DNA from: Lachnospiraceae bacterium
GTDB lineage: Bacteria > Bacillota > Clostridia > Lachnospirales > Lachnospiraceae
Direction: 5' to 3'
DNA length: 64,000 nt
Assembly (NCBI GenBank): GCA_051879215.1
Contig: JBJELP010000267.1
Span: 5,028-69,027 of the forward strand
In this document: positions 43,141 through 49,195 of the stretch, piece after piece
Numbering within the stretch: position 1 is the first letter of the stretch
Layout of the letters: each line of letters opens with the position of its first letter
Position numbers and translations under genes: made by a program
Notes under the pieces: model-generated
Database searches by the model: none
Seen by the model: only the letters and a program-made list of their open reading frames with translations
Told to the model about the DNA's origin: nothing

Positions 43141-43860
43141 CTATTCACACCGACTCTTTTGTCTCAGCTTCTCCATCTGCTCGTCAATGATACGGAAATG
43201 TTTATCCATGGCTTTTATTCCGGCGTCCATATTTTTACTGAGCAGACTTTCATAAATATCCCAGTGGGCTTTCCGCAGCTGTTCTGCTTTGATCCGGCTT
43301 ACCAGAATCCGGCCGCGCATATTTTCAATAAACCGGTCAAGCAGCTTGTCCAGCATAGAATAATATAAAATCAGAAGGCGGTTATGAGATGCTTTCACCA
43401 GCGTATGATGAAAATTGTTATCCAGAACGGCACTTTCCTTTGTGCTCATGGGCTGATCCATCTGTACCAGAATCTGATGAATCGACTCGATCTCTTCTTC
43501 TGTCGCATTGTTCATGGCCAGCTTCAATGCCATCTGCTCATAACCGGTGCGGATTTCCAGTATTTCCGTATAATCAATCTCCATCAATGCCATTACCATA
43601 TTGACCGATTTCAGCATATACTCTTCCGGATCGCATCGTACATAATTCCCGCTGCCCTGCAGACACTCAATCAGACCCGTCATCTCCAGCATATGCATCA
43701 CTTCCCGCACGGAATTGCGGCTGACCCCCAGCTTTTCTGCAATATCACGCTCCGTATCAATCTTATCATTCAATTTCAATTCCCCGGACAGGATCTTTTC
43801 TGAAAAATAATTAAAGATATATTCATACGTCTTCTGTCCATTTAATTTCATATTATCCAT
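43141..43860 (-). CDS. GntR-family (FadR/FCD subfamily) transcriptional regulator
   Basis: wHTH (ERDIAEKLGVSRNSVREVMHMLEMTGLI) plus an all-helical FCD domain. Start chosen at ATG 43860 (AGAAGG 6 nt upstream); the start is uncertain. Confidence 0.8.
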   Translation of the reverse strand: MDNMKLNGQKTYEYIFNYFSEKILSGELKLNDKIDTERDIAEKLGVSRNSVREVMHMLEMTGLIECLQGSGNYVRCDPEEYMLKSVNMVMALMEIDYTEILEIRTGYEQMALKLAMNNATEEEIESIHQILVQMDQPMSTKESAVLDNNFHHTLVKASHNRLLILYYSMLDKLLDRFIENMRGRILVSRIKAEQLRKAHWDIYESLLSKNMDAGIKAMDKHFRIIDEQMEKLRQKSRCE

Positions 43861-44137
43861 GGCGGACCTTCTTTCTCTGCCGGTAAATCCCTTCTCCGTT
43901 TTCATAGAGATCTGGCGCCGGATTCAGTTTGCAAAGCAAATTTTCCTATGTTCCCCAATATGATTTTTTGTTGGTTAGTATACCCTTATTTGTTTCCATA
44001 AGCAAGAAGTTTTCTGCCAAAAAGCCATATCTCTTTTTAATGACACTACTATTATGCACTTGTTCTGTTTCCGCAGTTTGGATATAATAAAACAAACAAA
44101 GTATGATCAGAAAACAAATTGAAAGGCGGTATCCCGT

Positions 44138-44719
44138 ATGTCTATCCGGAACATCCTTGAAAACCTGATAAATGATTACCCCATCTGCGAATACTGCTTC
44201 GGTACAACCGATCAGATTCCCTTTTCCGAGAAAGTCCGCTATATCTGCGAAAATGAATGCTCCCGCTGCAATCACTGCTGGGCCTGTCCGCCTTATGTGG
44301 GAAGTGTCCACGACAATATGAAAAAATGCCTGCAGTATCAACATTTTTTCCTTTTTTCCACAGTAAATCCGGTGACCGATGCGTGGAATACGGAAGAATG
44401 TCTCATGGCCAAAAAAGATCATGAAGCCGTTACCCGGAACATCCGAAAACAATTATGTGAAGAAACCGGACTTCCCATGGCCGCACCGGAGGATGCAAAT
44501 CCAGAAGAAAAAACTTCTCCTTTTCTGGTTCTCTCCACAGGCTGTGCCATCTGCGATGTCTGTGCCTGCCCCGATGAGCCCTGCCGCCATCCGGAAGAAC
44601 GGCTGAATTCCATGGAAAGCCATGGGATAGTCATCTTCTCTCTGGCAGAAGCCATGGAAATGTGTTACAACTACGGAAACGATTCCGCCACCTATTTCAG
44701 CATGGTGCTGTACAATTGA
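44138..44719 (+). CDS. DUF2284-type predicted metal-binding (Cys-rich) protein
   Basis: CEYC...CENECSRCNHCWACPP...CAICDVCACPDEPCRHP cysteine clusters. Confidence 0.7.
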   Translation: MSIRNILENLINDYPICEYCFGTTDQIPFSEKVRYICENECSRCNHCWACPPYVGSVHDNMKKCLQYQHFFLFSTVNPVTDAWNTEECLMAKKDHEAVTRNIRKQLCEETGLPMAAPEDANPEEKTSPFLVLSTGCAICDVCACPDEPCRHPEERLNSMESHGIVIFSLAEAMEMCYNYGNDSATYFSMVLYN

Positions 44720-44820
44720 CCTTTTCATCCAGCTCCCGTTTCAGTCCTTCTATCTCCTTCCGGGACACGCTCTCGCTCAGGTCCAAACGTAGCGGTTCTA
44801 AGCTCTCGTTCTTCCTTTCA

Positions 44821-44892
44821 GGAAGTCCGATCGCTAAGAGCCGACGTTTGCAATGGTCCCTTAAAGGAGATTTTCGGACTTCCACTGGGATG
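44821..44892 (+). repeat. Left ~72-bp terminal inverted repeat (IR-L) of the TIR cassette
   Basis: ggaagtccgatcgctaagagccgacgtttgcaatggtcccttaaaggagattttcggacttccactgggatg matches the reverse complement of 47300-47372 at about 63 of 73 aligned positions (hand alignment, one 1-nt gap). Confidence 0.85.
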
Positions 44893-44922
44893 ATATAAAT
44901 ACAAAAACAGAAGGATAATACT

Positions 44923-47139
44923 ATGTGGAACAAATATACATCTATCAAAGATCAAGAAGTCGAATTAATAAAAGAAAAGCTAATCAAGGATGGAAAAATA
45001 GCATCAGAATACTTTACTATTGATAACAATTTGTGTAAAAACTCAGGAGCAACACATTATCCCATTGTACTGATTATCGATAGTATAGAAACAAAGTCAT
45101 TTGATAATGCTATTGAAGTGATTTCCGAGATTATTAAGTGTAAAGATATTCTTTCTGATTCAATAGATATTGCTGTTGTTGAATATAGTAGTACTGTAAC
45201 AATTAATAGAGTTTTTTCGTATATAGAAGAAAATTTTATTTTTTCTCCATCCGACTATCAGCAAGATGCATTACCGAATTTGGGACCAGCTTTGTTTTTA
45301 TCATGGTATATTTCGGAATTGCGCATTCTTCAATATACAGAAGCGGGCATAGATTATAAACAACCCGTATTTATTTTGATAAGTTCATTTATTAACAAGT
45401 GTGATACTCAAATCGAAGGAAAATCATTATTTTCTAATGAAGACTCATGGATGATATCTCTATATAACCAGAAACAGGCAGCCCATAAATTGGGATTGAT
45501 AAAAGTTCCAATTTATGAAGAGAATACAGAGTATTATATCATGCTGAACGGTACAAGATATGATAAAAAAAGTATTCGTGAGACACTGCAAAGATTATTT
45601 GCCATACTAATAAAACCAATTGCTGCTTCAGATGTTCCAGAGAGAGAGGGGGATTTGAGCGTCAAACATTCTTTTCTGGAATATAATGATGGTTCTGAAA
45701 AAAGAGTTGAAACAAGTAAAAATGACCACACTATTCGGTTGCCCCAAAAAGGCTCAAGGTCTAAAATTTATGAAAAACTTGAAAGACAAAAACTACGAGA
45801 GGCACTTTTACGAGGAGATGGGACAGCTTCAATTACGCAAGATAATCCTATTGAATCTCCAAAATATATCGATGCAGCTGAGGAACGCCAAAGACTACGA
45901 AAAGCGCTTCTGCATGAAGGTCAGTATGAAGATTCAACAAATATTTTAAGGAATAGATATATCATATTAGATGATGATGGTTCATCTTCAAAAAATAGTA
46001 ACAATGTATCGTGTATACAAGTACCAAACGCTAAATTAGCTGGAGGGGCTGATCATGTTCGGTGTAAAAAATGTGGGAACATTTATTGGAAAGATTATAA
46101 TTTTTGTCCAGAATGTGGAACGAAACAATTTTGTCAAAATGAGTCTGGTTTCATACTATCAAGAGTAAATTTTTCAGCAACCGCTCCTAAAAAACTCTCG
46201 TGCAAAGTGTTCAATATCATTCATCTTATTGTATATGAAGATGAGTATCGTTCAGTTGTAAATAATATTATTCAGGATAAAGAAATACCACAGAGAGAAA
46301 TACCAGGTGGTACGACAAGGATTGCAGATGAATCAATTGTGAAAATCGTATTGAAGTCGGCAGACTTCGAAATCTATTATGAAGAAGAACGTACTTGGAA
46401 AGGACGATATATTGATTTTTCAATACCTGTAAAATTACCGGCAAAATTTGATAAGAAACAGGTTGCTTTCCAGACACTTATTTATGTTAATGATATCATA
46501 GCAACTCGCTTATCGTTTGTTGTGAAATGTGAAGCATTTAGAAGTCAGAAAATATCCATTTCTCGAGAGGATATTTTCTCTGCGTTCATTTCATATGCCA
46601 GTCAAGACCGAAGTAAGGCTGCTATGGTAATCCAGGGAATTCGTAAAGCACGACCTGATATGGATATTTTCTTTGATGTAGAAAGTCTTCGAAGCGGAGA
46701 AAACTGGGAGAATACTATTCATGAAGAAATAGGTCAAAGAGATATATTATATTTGTTTTGGTCAAATTATGCAAAGCAGTCGAAATGGGTAAATACAGAA
46801 TGGCGATATGCATACAGTATCAACGGGGAAGACGGTATAGAACCGATACCTCTTGAACCGGCATGGGAATGTCCGCCACCTGAAGAGTTAAAGAATAAGC
46901 ATTTTAATGATAATTTGCTCTACCTGATTAATCAGAATACTTCTAAAGATAAAAAAATTCGACCAGAAGGTATCATTAAGTCACAAAAAGAGGTTAACAT
47001 AGATAAGGAGTATTTGATTGCAAAGATAGCGGAATTAAAAGAACTACTTGAAATCGGTCTTTATTCTGAAAACGAGTATGAAAATGATCGTAAAGCTCTT
47101 TTAGAGGCCTATAGAAAAAATCAGAAATTTTTAAAATAG
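44923..47139 (+). CDS. 738-aa multidomain protein: TerY-like vWA (degenerate MIDAS), duplicated helical motif, zinc ribbon, beta-rich domain, TIR, SHOCT
   Basis: vWA-like aa ~45-215 (YPIVLIIDSIET...IAVVEYSSTV...LPNLGPAL...KQPVFILISS). CxxC-x13-CxxC at aa 381-398. TIR at aa ~549-645 (FISYASQD...DIFFD...ILYLFWSNYAKQSKWVNTEWRYA). SHOCT-like tail at aa ~696-733 (IAKIAELKELLEIGLYSENEYENDRKALL). RBS GAAGGA 7 nt upstream of the ATG. Confidence 0.8.
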   Translation: MWNKYTSIKDQEVELIKEKLIKDGKIASEYFTIDNNLCKNSGATHYPIVLIIDSIETKSFDNAIEVISEIIKCKDILSDSIDIAVVEYSSTVTINRVFSYIEENFIFSPSDYQQDALPNLGPALFLSWYISELRILQYTEAGIDYKQPVFILISSFINKCDTQIEGKSLFSNEDSWMISLYNQKQAAHKLGLIKVPIYEENTEYYIMLNGTRYDKKSIRETLQRLFAILIKPIAASDVPEREGDLSVKHSFLEYNDGSEKRVETSKNDHTIRLPQKGSRSKIYEKLERQKLREALLRGDGTASITQDNPIESPKYIDAAEERQRLRKALLHEGQYEDSTNILRNRYIILDDDGSSSKNSNNVSCIQVPNAKLAGGADHVRCKKCGNIYWKDYNFCPECGTKQFCQNESGFILSRVNFSATAPKKLSCKVFNIIHLIVYEDEYRSVVNNIIQDKEIPQREIPGGTTRIADESIVKIVLKSADFEIYYEEERTWKGRYIDFSIPVKLPAKFDKKQVAFQTLIYVNDIIATRLSFVVKCEAFRSQKISISREDIFSAFISYASQDRSKAAMVIQGIRKARPDMDIFFDVESLRSGENWENTIHEEIGQRDILYLFWSNYAKQSKWVNTEWRYAYSINGEDGIEPIPLEPAWECPPPEELKNKHFNDNLLYLINQNTSKDKKIRPEGIIKSQKEVNIDKEYLIAKIAELKELLEIGLYSENEYENDRKALLEAYRKNQKFLK

Positions 47140-47203
47140 ACGAGAGACTGCAAACATTATTTTTGCCAGCCTAAAAAAACTTATGTTTAAATAACATAAA
47201 GAT

Positions 47204-47272
47204 ATGCTCCCTCTTAAGTAAACAAGTTTTTTATTTCACTTGTCTTGCCTGAAAGGGAGCATCTCAATTTTC
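47204..47272 (+). terminator. Candidate terminator / nested hairpin downstream of the TIR gene
   Basis: 9-bp stem ATGCTCCCT/AGGGAGCAT (47204-47212 / 47254-47262) enclosing an inner 6-bp hairpin ACAAGT/ACTTGT, followed by CTCAATTTTC. Confidence 0.4.
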
Positions 47273-47299
47273 ACAGCCCGGATGCCTTTTTCTTTTTAC

Positions 47300-47372
47300 C
47301 ATTCCAGTGAAAGCCCAATAAATCTCCTTCAAGGGACCATTTCAAACGCCGGTTCTTAGCGATCGGACTTTC
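47300..47372 (-). repeat. Right ~73-bp terminal inverted repeat (IR-R) of the TIR cassette
   Basis: Its reverse complement gaaagtccgatcgctaagaaccggcgtttgaaatggtcccttgaaggagatttattgggctttcactggaatg aligns with IR-L. Confidence 0.85.
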
Positions 47373-47380
47373 ACATATGA

Positions 47381-49195
47381 TCAATCATAATATCCGCATA
47401 CATCACATCGTAAGCATCTTCCGGATTCCTGCATGGCTTCTTCATATGTCATGGGACATTCCACATGTTCAAAATCATGCTTACGCTGGTATGCAGGTCT
47501 TTCCCCGATATTGACCCGTCCGGTGGGAATACGGTTGTTGGGTTTCGGCATGGGTGCTTTCACACCGCAGTCCAGAACACTGCTGCAGCCCAGATATTCA
47601 TCAATATTCCATGCTGCCACCTTTCCTGCCGCAATGGCACGGATTGCTGTGGCAGGGCCGGTTGCACAGTCGCCGCCGACAAATACACCGGGCATTCCTT
47701 CCACTGCAGTATCAAGTCCTGCCTGCAGAACATTTCTATTGGCGGGAATACCGAAGTTTTCAAAGGGTTTGCTGACGATATCCTGACCAACTGCGATCAG
47801 TACAATATCACAGGCAATGCGCTCCGGATCCTTTGATGCATTCATGGGAGCCGGACGGCCTCCCCGGTCATAGGGACCGATCATCTGGGGCTGAACCCAC
47901 AGAGCGGCACACTTGCCTTCCGCATCCTTTTCTATGCTTACGGGAGCCTGCAGAAGCATCAGCTCAATACCCTCCATGATGGCGGATTCAATTTCCGTTT
48001 CCAGAGCTGTCATGTCTTCATGACGTCTTCTGTATACAATCCGCACATCCGCTGCTCCGCAGCGCAGGGCACTTCTCGCCGCATCCATGGCAACATTGCC
48101 TCCGCCGATGACACATACGGTTTTTCCGGTGTAGTCCGGACGATTTCCATGGCCGATCTGGTCCAGCATTTCAACTGCGGAGAATACATTTTCCGCATCT
48201 GCACCTTCCATACGAAGCTTCTTGCCCACCTGTGCACCAATTGCCACATACATGGCATCATGACTGTTTCGTACTTCTTCGATGGAAATATCCACACCTA
48301 CATTGACATTGTATTTTACTTCAATATTGCCGGTGGAAAGGATGGCATTCATATCCTCATCCAGCCGGTCCTTGGGGAAACGATAGTTGGGAATGCCGTA
48401 CATCAGCATGCCGCCCAGATGTTCCTTTGCTTCGTATACTGTAACCTTATGGCCCATCAGAGACAGGAAATAAGCTGCTGTCATACCACTGGGACCGCCG
48501 CCGATAACAGCAACCTTCTTGCCGGTTGACGGGTTGGGAACAGGAACTGCCACCTTATCTGCTGCAATCTGATCCACCGCATATTTTTTGATGCCGCGGA
48601 TATTCACAGAACTGTCAATCAGGTTACGGCGGCATCTTTCCTCACAGGGATGTTCACAGATCATGGCACATGCCGTAGGCAGCGGGTTATCACGGCGGAT
48701 CAGGTTGATTGCATCCGCATAATTACCATCATGCACATGGGCAATATATCCGGGAATATCCACATGGGCCGGGCAAAGGGTCACGCAGGGAATATGTACC
48801 TGATTCTTTTCAGCCGGTTTTCCTGCAATGTATGCAAGATACTGATCGCCGAAAAGACTTAAACTCTCCAGCACCTCTTCACCGGTCTGATATCCGATGG
48901 CACAATCTGCACAGTTGGCAAGCAGATCTGCTGTGGCACGGAACTGAACAAGTGTTTCCGCTGATGCCTTTCCATCAATAATATTCCGCAGCATCATTTC
49001 CAGTTTCGGCATACCCTCGCGACAGGGTGTGCATTTGCCGCAGGACTGACAACGGGATGCGGTAATCAACGCCAGCACCACCTTTAACGGGTCGGTACCC
49101 GGGGGGAAGATACTTGATTTCCCTGCAAGCTTCCGCATCAGACCCTGACTTTTCACGTCATTGCTTTTGCTTTCAGCAAGATACAATTTACTCAT
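47381..49195 (-). CDS. GltD-family (glutamate-synthase small-subunit-like) NAD(P)H oxidoreductase fused to a NuoF-type Fe-S domain
   Basis: N-terminal CQSCGKCTPCREG; a GltD-type Fe-S region (CPAHVDIPGY...CEHPCEERC); GGGPSGMTAAY and a second GGGNVAMD dinucleotide fold. ATG at 49195 follows GAAGGAGAG. Confidence 0.8.
   Translation of the reverse strand: MSKLYLAESKSNDVKSQGLMRKLAGKSSIFPPGTDPLKVVLALITASRCQSCGKCTPCREGMPKLEMMLRNIIDGKASAETLVQFRATADLLANCADCAIGYQTGEEVLESLSLFGDQYLAYIAGKPAEKNQVHIPCVTLCPAHVDIPGYIAHVHDGNYADAINLIRRDNPLPTACAMICEHPCEERCRRNLIDSSVNIRGIKKYAVDQIAADKVAVPVPNPSTGKKVAVIGGGPSGMTAAYFLSLMGHKVTVYEAKEHLGGMLMYGIPNYRFPKDRLDEDMNAILSTGNIEVKYNVNVGVDISIEEVRNSHDAMYVAIGAQVGKKLRMEGADAENVFSAVEMLDQIGHGNRPDYTGKTVCVIGGGNVAMDAARSALRCGAADVRIVYRRRHEDMTALETEIESAIMEGIELMLLQAPVSIEKDAEGKCAALWVQPQMIGPYDRGGRPAPMNASKDPERIACDIVLIAVGQDIVSKPFENFGIPANRNVLQAGLDTAVEGMPGVFVGGDCATGPATAIRAIAAGKVAAWNIDEYLGCSSVLDCGVKAPMPKPNNRIPTGRVNIGERPAYQRKHDFEHVECPMTYEEAMQESGRCLRCDVCGYYD

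What the first reader, a model, noticed from the sequence alone, without database searches (positions are those of the whole stretch)
44923..47139. Stand-alone 738-aa vWA / zinc-ribbon / TIR / SHOCT protein: candidate undescribed single-gene NADase-type defence system
Seen in sequence: one long ORF with its own RBS, much more AT-rich than its neighbours. I counted 27% and 35% G+C in two 60-nt lines inside it, against 42% and 45% in flanking genes, and it has TTA/AAA/ATT-rich codon usage. Read by eye, the domain order is: (1) a TerY-like von Willebrand A fold (aa ~45-215); (2) two copies of an ERQ(K/R)LR(E/K)ALL helix; (3) a CxxC-x13-CxxC zinc ribbon (aa 381-398); (4) a ~150-aa beta-rich region (SRVNFSATAPKKLSCKVFNIIHLIVYED...) of the kind often found N-terminal to bacterial TIR domains; (5) a TIR domain (FISYASQD...DIFFD...LYLFWS...SKWVNTEWRYA); (6) a SHOCT-like amphipathic tail. 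The S-x-W-x3-E signature places a Glu at aa 626 (nt 46798-46800), where catalytic Glu residues of NAD-cleaving TIR domains sit. Established knowledge: bacterial TIR domains act as NADase or signal-generating effectors in Thoeris, TIR-SAVED/CBASS and several Avs-like systems. Here no ThsA-like, SAVED, STING, cyclase or NTPase partner is adjacent. I do not recognise this exact vWA-ZnR-TIR-SHOCT combination as a named system. Inference: it is a self-contained sensor-effector abortive-infection protein acquired horizontally.
Basis: partly seen in the sequence, partly recalled or inferred. Interest (0 to 1): 0.9.

Follow-up and report, generated by a model that had tools for sequence, protein, structure and literature searches.

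The report
Solitary vWA–TIR gene between IS remnants
A foreign-looking gene in a gut Lachnospiraceae genome encodes a multi-domain TIR (NAD-cleaving type) protein that is probably an anti-phage sensor-effector, but its relatives normally sit in clusters of many TIR genes and this lone copy lies between two inverted fragments of an insertion sequence.

Summary
ORF 44923-47139 encodes 738 aa. Its G+C is 33.5% against a 45.5% background (z = -7.5).

Domains:
- vWA fold with a degenerate metal site (aa 1-231)
- Two ERQxLRxALL helices
- Invariant four-Cys zinc ribbon (spacer x10, not x13)
- Ig-like beta-sandwich
- TIR domain above Pfam's cut-off, with E626 aligned to SARM1's catalytic E642
- Helical tail that is only SHOCT-like (sub-threshold)

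- The gene is solitary here, and PADLOC does not classify it.
- The beta-sandwich+TIR core is a sizeable gut-Firmicutes family (at least 200 clusters).
- In six of eight contexts examined, that family lies in arrays of 4-7 TIR genes or in conflict islands, so the family is not generally stand-alone.
The gene occupies the transposase's position. Both terminal repeats are missing.

Most likely it is a horizontally delivered TIR NADase acting as a phage-triggered sensor-effector, like SpbK. A ThsB-like signal generator cut off from its array is the main rival. Function is untested. It is a new variant of a known kind, of moderate interest.

The parts
44722..44912 (+). Left arm: about 191 nt derived from the 5' leader of an IS1182-family insertion sequence, in the same sense as that IS's transposase. 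It lacks the terminal inverted repeat GGGGCTGTCGCAYTAA.
   Evidence: 87% identity over 191-193 nt to L012 and L013. In L013 the same sequence lies between IRL and the transposase ATG. No IS terminal repeat occurs anywhere in the window.
44823..44873 (.). Core of the inverted repeat, left copy (51 nt).
   Evidence: the repeat finder I1: 92% complementary to 47320-47370. The 17-mer occurs exactly twice in the window, with 0 expected by chance.
44910..44915 (+). Ribosome-binding site GAAGGA, 7 nt before the ATG.
   Evidence: Read directly from the sequence.
44923..47139 (+). 738-aa ORF encoding the vWA / zinc-ribbon / Ig-like / TIR protein (P0001, annotated 'MAG: TIR domain-containing protein [Lachnospiraceae bacterium]').
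44923..45615 (+). aa 1-231: divergent vWA domain with a degenerate MIDAS site (DSI with a 5-residue gap in place of DxSxS, no Thr, LISSF in place of LISD).
45781..45912 (+). aa 287-330: two copies of the ERQ(K/R)LR(E/K)ALL helix within a low-confidence linker (aa 232-375).
46033..46125 (+). aa 371-401: invariant KLAGG motif followed by a CxxC-x10-CPEC zinc ribbon.
   Evidence: Invariant columns in A2. Sub-threshold Pfam zinc-ribbon hits. Cys positions.
46156..46533 (+). aa 412-537: Ig/FnIII-like beta-sandwich. Together with the TIR it forms the minimal conserved module of the family.
   Evidence: pLDDT 90-98. Foldseek hits to beta-sandwich accessory domains of glycoside hydrolases. The 260-265-aa family members begin here.
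46567..46938 (+). aa 549-672: TIR domain.
   Evidence: Pfam TIR_2 E=6.8e-14. Foldseek TIR hits at prob 1.00.
46798..46800 (+). Codon GAA for E626, the predicted catalytic glutamate.
46993..47127 (+). aa 691-735: two-helix C-terminal tail, SHOCT-like (unproven). It is present only in the vWA-bearing subfamily.
   Evidence: pLDDT 84-93. Sub-threshold SHOCT, SHOCT_2 and GvpG hits. Absent in P0008-P0019.
47201..47265 (+). Stable hairpin downstream of the stop codon; a possible terminator.
   Evidence: the repeat finder I4. RNA fold z = -3.5. The Rfam MIR319 hit here is below the gathering score and is taken as chance.
47287..47370 (-). Right arm: inverted partial copy (about 86 nt) of the same IS leader. 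It is preceded at 47262-47286 by a remnant of the leader's hairpin and T-run. The outer ~100 nt and the terminal repeat are missing.
   Evidence: 87% identity over 86 nt to L012 and L013. Alignment A1..

Best explanation
The gene encodes a cytoplasmic, catalytically competent TIR enzyme of a gut-Firmicutes family. The family's core is an Ig-like beta-sandwich fused to a TIR domain. N-terminal add-ons vary; here they are a MIDAS-less vWA domain, two conserved helices and a zinc ribbon.

The gene arrived by horizontal transfer from a lower-G+C donor. It lies between two inverted fragments of an IS1182-family leader, in the place and orientation of the transposase. This suggests that an IS-mediated event delivered it and may drive its expression.

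Inferred mechanism, modelled on SpbK and other one-protein TIR systems:
1. The vWA and/or beta-sandwich bind a phage or other invader protein.
2. Binding brings the TIR domains together, perhaps helped by the C-terminal helical hairpin.
3. The assembled TIR active site, using E626, cleaves NAD+.
4. The result is NAD+ depletion and abortive infection.

Shown: the sequence features, the folds, the conserved Glu, the foreign composition, the IS-derived flanks, and the family's contexts. Inferred: the trigger, oligomerisation, NADase activity, and defence.
For: - TIR above Pfam's cut-off and TIR fold confirmed.
- E626 is invariant in 66 sequences and aligns with SARM1 E642.
- All family-invariant residues are retained and the ORF is intact.
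- No signal peptide or transmembrane segment: the highest 19-residue hydropathy is 1.19.
- The vWA fold is a protein-binding module.
- Family members lie next to type I R-M, PemK, WYL, NADAR-DarT, DUF4062 and STAND-TIR genes.
- Solitary intact copies exist in two unrelated settings: the window with L014, and L017.
- Foreign composition: z = -7.5 and GC3 0.24, matching the 34-37% G+C of the closest homologues' loci.
- IS-leader flanks.
- Precedents for one-protein TIR defence: SpbK, whose N-terminal domain binds the phage portal protein and whose mutation E192Q abolishes defence (10.1101/2024.12.23.630042); and one-protein TIR systems in E. coli (PMC11350192).
Against: - There are no functional data.
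- The closest homologues are never solitary. This fits a role as one sensor among many that feed shared partners.
- PADLOC and NCBIfam give only weak ThsB/ThcB-type hits.
- The vWA metal site is degenerate, so its ligand-binding mode is unclear.
- The TIR was poorly modelled until a deeper alignment was used.
- No promoter or terminator stands out above the shuffled background.
- No empty site or second insertion site was found, so mobility is not demonstrated.
Confidence: 0.45

Rival explanations
1. ThsB-like signal generator cut off from its system. In its native arrays the protein senses infection and makes an NAD-derived signal for a separate effector. The solitary copy here either feeds an effector encoded elsewhere in the genome or is functionally orphaned.
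For: - Six of eight contexts are multi-TIR arrays or conflict islands.
- Islands with many ThsB genes sharing effectors are documented (10.64898/2025.12.03.692087).
- The best PADLOC and NCBIfam hits are of ThsB/ThcB4 type, and Pfam ThsB_TIR scores 20.2 bits against a cut-off of 21.2.
Against: - No recognised Thoeris effector was found in the arrays.
- blastp finds no conserved large partner across arrays.
- None is encoded in the window.
- Solitary intact copies persist in two settings.
Confidence: 0.3
2. A non-defence role. For example, the protein could be a scaffold or adaptor, or a substrate or toxin linked to the secretion-type ATPases (TraG/VirD4, FtsK/SpoIIIE) and WXG100 genes seen near relatives. 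It could also be a host-directed TIR protein of the TcpB/BtpA kind.
For: - TraG/TrwB and TIR-FtsK genes lie in L001.
- Flp pilin and a prepilin peptidase lie in L002.
- The stand-alone vWA relative P0020 lies next to PP2C, FtsK/SpoIIIE and WXG100 genes.
- BtpA/TcpB is among the structural TIR matches.
Against: - There is no signal peptide, transmembrane segment or recognisable secretion signal.
- No secretion genes lie near the window copy.
- The catalytic Glu is strictly conserved.
- R-M, toxin-antitoxin and other defence-type genes sit beside the relatives.
Confidence: 0.12
3. Inert cargo. The gene is a hitch-hiking remnant left by IS-mediated rearrangement. It is not expressed or not functional in this host.
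For: - Both IS arms are truncated and lack terminal repeats.
- No convincing promoter was found.
- The vWA MIDAS site is degenerate.
Against: - A 738-codon ORF remains intact in 33% G+C DNA, with every family-invariant residue retained.
- The MIDAS loss is shared with the array-resident orthologues P0002 and P0003, so it is not recent decay.
- There is a good ribosome-binding site.
- An identical copy occurs in a second sample.
Confidence: 0.1

Closest known systems
SpbK (YddK) of Bacillus subtilis ICEBs1: a one-protein TIR abortive-infection system
   Same: It is a single cytoplasmic protein in Bacillota, carried by a mobile element. An N-terminal sensor region sits ahead of a C-terminal TIR with an essential catalytic Glu. 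The working model is that binding a phage protein causes oligomerisation and NAD+ depletion (10.1101/2024.12.23.630042).
   Different: SpbK has 267 aa and a small N-terminal domain. The protein here has 738 aa with vWA, zinc-ribbon, Ig-like and tail modules. No sequence relationship was shown. The trigger here is unknown and the activity is untested.
Thoeris ThsB proteins, including islands with many ThsB genes
   Same: TIR proteins with variable sensor parts, often several in tandem (10.64898/2025.12.03.692087). These give the best, though weak, PADLOC, NCBIfam and Pfam ThsB-type hits.
   Different: No ThsA or other known Thoeris effector lies next to the window gene or was recognised in the homologues' arrays. 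The ThsB_TIR score is below Pfam's cut-off. That survey explicitly excluded standalone TIR proteins.
TIR NADase effectors of SPARTA (TIR-APAZ), CBASS (TIR-SAVED) and Pycsar
   Same: The SPARTA TIR is the closest solved TIR fold: 8qlp, prob 1.00, 19% identity. In these systems NADase activity depends on oligomerisation (established knowledge).
   Different: No Argonaute, APAZ or SAVED domain is present, and no cyclase gene is adjacent.
DSR2-type single-protein NADase sensors (SIR2-based)
   Same: These follow the same concept: one large protein joins a sensor to an NAD+-depleting domain that a phage structural protein activates (PMC10973363 abstract).
   Different: The catalytic fold differs (SIR2, not TIR), and there is no homology.
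Mobile insertion cassettes and other transposase-less IS derivatives that carry a passenger gene (from my own knowledge, e.g. MIC231 of Bacillus cereus)
   Same: A passenger gene lies between inverted IS-derived sequences, with no transposase.
   Different: The arms here come from the internal leader rather than the IS termini. The family's terminal repeat GGGGCTGTCGCAYTAA is absent, and no second copy or empty site was found.
TerY-type vWA proteins of the vWA / PP2C / kinase triads (Aravind lab, from my own knowledge; vWA-based conflict systems in PMC7159879)
   Same: The N-terminal domain belongs to a small vWA family. Its closest stand-alone member lies next to a PP2C phosphatase. PP2C and kinase genes also lie in the P0018 array. 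vWA components that have acquired TIR domains are described in PMC7159879.
   Different: No MoxR, PP2C or kinase gene is adjacent in the window. The MIDAS site is lost. The published vWA-TIR cases are from actinobacteria, cyanobacteria and deltaproteobacteria and occur in ternary systems.

Membership tests
TIR domain (Pfam TIR_2, PF13676) | Profile match above the curated cut-off | tested here: met
   52.8 bits against a cut-off of 28, aa 555-660.
TIR domain (Pfam TIR_2, PF13676) | Flavodoxin-like TIR fold | tested here: met
   Model pLDDT 87. Foldseek prob 1.00 to SPARTA TIR, MyD88, TRR-2, BtpA and AbTir, with TM (target) 0.5-0.73.
Catalytic (NAD-cleaving) TIR | Conserved glutamate in the W-x-x-x-E position of helix alphaC | tested here: met
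   E626 is invariant.
Catalytic (NAD-cleaving) TIR | NAD+ cleavage activity | not testable with these tools
   Needs biochemistry.
von Willebrand A domain | Profile match above the Pfam cut-off | tested here: inconclusive
   The query alone gives E=0.07, 13.7 bits against a cut-off of 23.8. 11 of 15 relatives match (best E=7.6e-08). The family profile hits PTMP1 vWA at E=1e-06.
von Willebrand A domain | vWA (Rossmann-like alpha/beta) fold | tested here: met
   pLDDT about 90. All top 30 PDB matches are vWA domains.
von Willebrand A domain | MIDAS metal site (DxSxS ... T ... D) | tested here: not met
   The query has D53-S-I with a 5-residue deletion, no Thr, and LISSF instead of LISD. The relatives keep the motif.
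SHOCT domain (PF09851 / PF20612) | Profile match above the curated cut-off | tested here: not met
   SHOCT_2 gives 13.9 bits against a cut-off of 24 (E=0.064). The best among five homologous tails is E=0.012, and GvpG scores better.
Zinc ribbon | Four conserved Cys in two CxxC knuckles | tested here: met
   C381, C384, C395 and C398 are invariant. The Pfam models all score below their cut-offs.
Thoeris | ThsB-type TIR protein | tested here: inconclusive
   ThsB_TIR 20.2 bits against a cut-off of 21.2. PADLOC ThsB E=4e-4. ThcB4 21 bits against a cut-off of 220.
Thoeris | Adjacent effector gene (ThsA or another known Thoeris effector) | tested here: not met
   The neighbours are DUF2284 and a glutamate-synthase-like oxidoreductase.
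CBASS / Pycsar TIR effector | SAVED or nucleotide-sensor domain and a cyclase gene | tested here: not met
   No SAVED domain (only E=0.02 over the TIR part). No cyclase gene nearby.
Avs / STAND TIR-NLR | STAND NTPase domain | tested here: not met
   No NTPase domain in Pfam, PADLOC or NCBIfam.
SpbK family | Sequence homology to SpbK | not tested
   The SpbK sequence was not at hand. Only the architecture and working model were compared.
IS-derived mobile cassette (MIC-like) | Terminal inverted repeats of the parent IS at both ends | tested here: not met
   GGGGCTGTCGCAYTAA is absent from the window even with 2 mismatches allowed. The arms start inside the leader.
IS-derived mobile cassette (MIC-like) | More than one insertion site, or an empty site | tested here: inconclusive
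   Only the same locus was found again (L014). The other look-ups were empty or uninformative.
Invertible segment (inverton) | Flanking inverted repeats, a nearby recombinase, and both orientations observed | tested here: not met
   The inverted repeat is present. No recombinase gene lies among the neighbours. Both samples show the same orientation.

The most novel reading that the evidence does not exclude
The cassette is what remains of a transposase-less vehicle built from two copies of an IS1182-family left end. It lifted a single immune gene out of a multi-TIR array and now expresses it from the IS leader. The protein is a self-sufficient TIR NADase whose MIDAS-less vWA domain acts as a trap for a phage protein. 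If so, gut Lachnospiraceae would exchange individual 'TIR receptor' genes from large diversified arrays by IS capture.
Probability: 0.12. Interest if true: 0.65.

Novelty: new variant of a known kind. Interest (0 to 1): 0.42.

Why it matters
If it is active on its own, it would add a new sensor architecture (MIDAS-less vWA, zinc ribbon and Ig-like domain) to the short list of one-protein TIR immune systems. It would come from gut Clostridia, which are poorly sampled in defence screens. The large TIR survey excluded standalone TIRs.

The beta-sandwich+TIR family and its multi-TIR arrays are not classified by PADLOC v2. They look like a diversified receptor repertoire worth systematic study.

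The IS-leader flanks suggest a simple route by which single defence genes leave such arrays and land among housekeeping genes.

Tried and rejected
- Rfam search of 43500-48500: only a chance MIR319 match on the 3' hairpin.
- Hypothesis that the arms encode a small protein: the 83-aa ORF on the minus strand has no Pfam hit. The sequence is IS leader.
- Hypothesis that the ~190-nt element is an independent repeat next to which the IS inserted: rejected. In L013 the family's terminal repeat lies outside the element, exactly where L012 and L013 diverge. The window arms also include IS backbone features, namely the A-run and a remnant of the hairpin.
- Hypothesis that this IS naturally has long terminal inverted repeats: relatives have only 15-35-bp repeats. 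The right end of the L013 copy could not be read.
- Searches for the element: none in JGI metagenome contigs and none in plasmids.
- Search for the protein in phage genomes: none.
- Empty-site searches with exact flanking proteins: same arrangement or nothing.
- Search for a conserved large partner across arrays, or in the window: none by blastp or tblastn.
- The small 77-78-aa ORF upstream of P0002 and P0005: absent from the window.
- Profile and sequence searches of the TIR against PDB sequences: no hit. Fold comparison was needed.
- Viral structure library: only generic Ig-like, TIR or deoxyribosyltransferase folds.
- Promoter and terminator scan: nothing above the shuffled background.
Full report
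OBSERVATION

The ORF is real. It runs from 44923 to 47139 on the + strand, encodes 738 aa and starts with ATG. A GAAGGA ribosome-binding site lies 7 nt upstream. The start is conserved in the closest homologues.

Its composition is strongly atypical.
- G+C is 0.335, against 0.455 +/- 0.016 for equally long windows elsewhere in the 64 kb (z = -7.5).
- GC3 is 0.24, against 0.49-0.54 in the neighbours.
- Leu codon usage is inverted: CTG 11% against 63%, TTA 29% against 6%.
- It is the only such stretch in the window.

The exact protein is on record as a 'TIR domain-containing protein' from a Lachnospiraceae MAG. An identical 3.2-kb stretch occurs in a second sample (L014).

DOMAINS

TIR. Pfam TIR_2 matches aa 555-660 at 52.8 bits (cut-off 28). 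With a 66-sequence alignment, AlphaFold gives a confident model (mean pLDDT 87). Foldseek matches it to the TIR domains of SPARTA TIR-APAZ, MyD88, Hydra TRR-2, BtpA/TcpB and AbTir at probability 1.00. E626 (GAA, 46798-46800) is invariant in the family.

vWA. The N-terminal 231 residues are a vWA domain, although Pfam does not see it in the query itself (E=0.07).
- An exhaustive search found only 17 related clusters among 1.84 billion representatives.
- 11 of 15 of these relatives match Pfam VWA.
- Their profile hits a solved vWA protein at E=1e-06.
- The model is confident, and every top PDB match is a vWA domain.
- The relatives carry the canonical DxSxS...T...D metal site. The window protein and its orthologues P0002 and P0003 have lost it.

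Linker and zinc ribbon. Two ERQxLRxALL helices (aa 287 and 321) lie in a low-confidence linker. An invariant KLAGG motif and a four-Cys zinc ribbon follow.

Beta-sandwich. The beta-rich region (aa 412-537) is a confident Ig/FnIII-like beta-sandwich.

Tail. The C-terminal tail is a confident two-helix hairpin. It reaches SHOCT models only below threshold.

Localisation. There is no signal peptide or transmembrane segment.

THE FAMILY AND ITS CONTEXTS

- The full architecture is rare: the query plus P0002 and P0003.
- The beta-sandwich+TIR core is common in gut Firmicutes. There are 200 clusters at 45-56% identity.
- Minimal members of about 260 aa consist of just these two domains. Others add a zinc ribbon, coiled coils, FHA, Sel1 or a second TIR.
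- Every close homologue examined lies in a co-directional array of 4-7 TIR-domain genes. Array members include TIR-TPR, TIR-kinase, STAND-TIR, TIR-FtsK and LRR-TIR-Sel1 proteins. Also present are TraG/TrwB ATPases, PP2C and kinase genes, and Flp pilin with its peptidase. These arrays lie next to type I R-M or DUF4062 genes.
- Two further family members lie in conflict-type islands with RyR, NUDIX, HD, NADAR-DarT, WYL and PemK genes.
- One member (P0152, which has two TIR domains) is solitary among housekeeping genes.
- The array neighbours share only distant TIR similarity with the query.
- No conserved large partner was found.
- Neither NCBIfam nor PADLOC recognises the arrays as a named system.
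- In the window the neighbours are MatE, MerR, HAD, GntR and DUF2284 genes, a glutamate-synthase-like oxidoreductase, and TrkH/TrkA. No other TIR ORF exists in the 64 kb.

THE FLANKS

It extends to about 86 nt.

The same sequence occurs once each in two other Lachnospiraceae MAGs. There it lies upstream of an IS1182-family transposase (DUF772 + DDE_Tnp_1_6). The window's left flank matches about 191 nt of it at 87% identity, and the right flank matches 86 nt.

Relatives of that transposase define the family's terminal repeat as GGGGCTGTCGCAYTAA. In L013 this repeat lies exactly where L012 and L013 diverge. The shared ~190-nt element is therefore part of the IS leader, between IRL and the hairpin that precedes the transposase.

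In the window:
- The left arm runs from just inside IRL to 11 nt before the TIR gene's start codon, in transposase sense. The TIR gene therefore sits where the transposase would be.
- The right arm is an inverted partial copy of the same leader.
- Both arms lack the terminal repeat, and none occurs in the window. The cassette cannot now be a functional IS derivative.

I infer IS-mediated capture or delivery followed by decay. I could not show a second site or an empty site.

MECHANISM

The most likely reading (about 0.45) is a self-contained, phage-triggered TIR NADase. The vWA and/or Ig-like domains would bind an invader protein. Oligomerisation would then assemble the TIR active site, and NAD+ would be cleaved.

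This model follows two precedents:
- SpbK of ICEBs1. Its N-terminal domain binds the phage portal protein, and the E192Q mutation abolishes defence.
- The one-protein TIR systems of E. coli.

The main rival (about 0.3) is a ThsB-like signal generator separated from its array. A secretion-linked or host-directed role, or inert cargo, is less likely. Points against those readings are the strict conservation of the catalytic Glu, the intact ORF, the cytoplasmic character and the defence-type neighbours of relatives.

COMPARISON AND NOVELTY

TIR sensor-effectors and multi-ThsB islands are known kinds. vWA components that acquired TIR domains have been described in other phyla, in ternary systems. 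I found no description of this particular combination (MIDAS-less vWA, zinc ribbon, Ig-like domain, TIR and helical tail), of the beta-sandwich+TIR family, or of the IS-leader-flanked solitary copy. The large TIR survey excluded standalone TIRs.

I rate it a new variant of a known kind, with moderate interest (0.42). The sequence-level claims are solid. The functional claims remain inference.

Noticed in passing
window 44722-44912; L013 1740-1935; L012 895-1085: The ~190-nt stretch of the IS1182-family leader is absent from related IS copies, which have only about 90 nt between IRL and the transposase ATG. It contains a hairpin (GGAAGTCCG...CGGACTTCC). In the window's right arm this hairpin carries a compensatory change (GAAAG...CTTTC). 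It could be a structured RNA, or a nested insertion in that IS lineage. It has no Rfam match.
   Followed up: partly
L001, L002-L005, L006-L009, L010-L011, L018: Gut-Firmicutes arrays hold 4-7 different TIR-domain genes in one orientation. They are mixed with STAND-TIR, TIR-FtsK, TIR-kinase and LRR-TIR-Sel1 genes, PP2C and kinase genes, TraG/TrwB genes, and in one case an Flp-type pilin with its prepilin peptidase. PADLOC v2 and NCBIfam do not recognise them as a named system.
   Followed up: partly
window 46033-46047 (aa 371-375) and 45781-45912: An internal motif (V/I)PxGKLAGG is invariant just before the zinc ribbon. A repeated RRKLREALL-type helix is conserved across family members that have unrelated N-termini. 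Their roles are unknown; they could be an adaptor, an oligomerisation surface or a processing site.
   Followed up: no
L006 283-519; L010 282-515: A conserved 77-78-aa ORF (…IPGR(L/M)YFQSEA…QLIQLAYCGM…) lies directly upstream of the P0005 and P0002 homologues. It has no counterpart in the window.
   Followed up: partly
L014 (Logan SRR30616851), equal to window 44101-47340: The independent contig is 100% identical to the window but ends inside the right arm. This is the usual sign of an assembly break at a repeat. It suggests that further copies of the IS leader, or orientation heterogeneity, exist in that sample.
   Followed up: no
L046 7770-13806: The closest stand-alone relative of the N-terminal vWA domain (P0020) is followed by a PP2C phosphatase, a 390-aa unknown protein and an FtsK/SpoIIIE ATPase. 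A WXG100-like gene lies upstream. This resembles a vWA/PP2C triad or a type VII-secretion-like setting.
   Followed up: no
L015 8950-9234; L018 315-602: A small RyR-domain protein, 64% identical between the two loci, recurs next to beta-sandwich+TIR genes in two otherwise different islands.
   Followed up: no
L017 10001-11377 (GCA_053312735.1): P0152 has two TIR domains: an N-terminal TIR followed by the beta-sandwich+TIR module. It is solitary among glycoside hydrolase and housekeeping genes, with no drop in G+C.
   Followed up: partly
window 44697-44948 (-): An 83-aa ORF overlaps the left arm and the 3' end of the DUF2284 gene. It is a read-through of IS-leader sequence, has no Pfam match, and is probably not a gene.
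   Followed up: yes
window 47201-47265: A stable hairpin lies downstream of the TIR gene (z = -3.5). It produced a sub-threshold Rfam MIR319 match, which is taken as chance.
   Followed up: yes
P0007 (507 aa): One homologue joins a RepA_N-type replication-initiator N-terminus directly to the zinc ribbon / beta-sandwich / TIR / tail module. It may be a chimeric or truncated gene on a mobile element.
   Followed up: no
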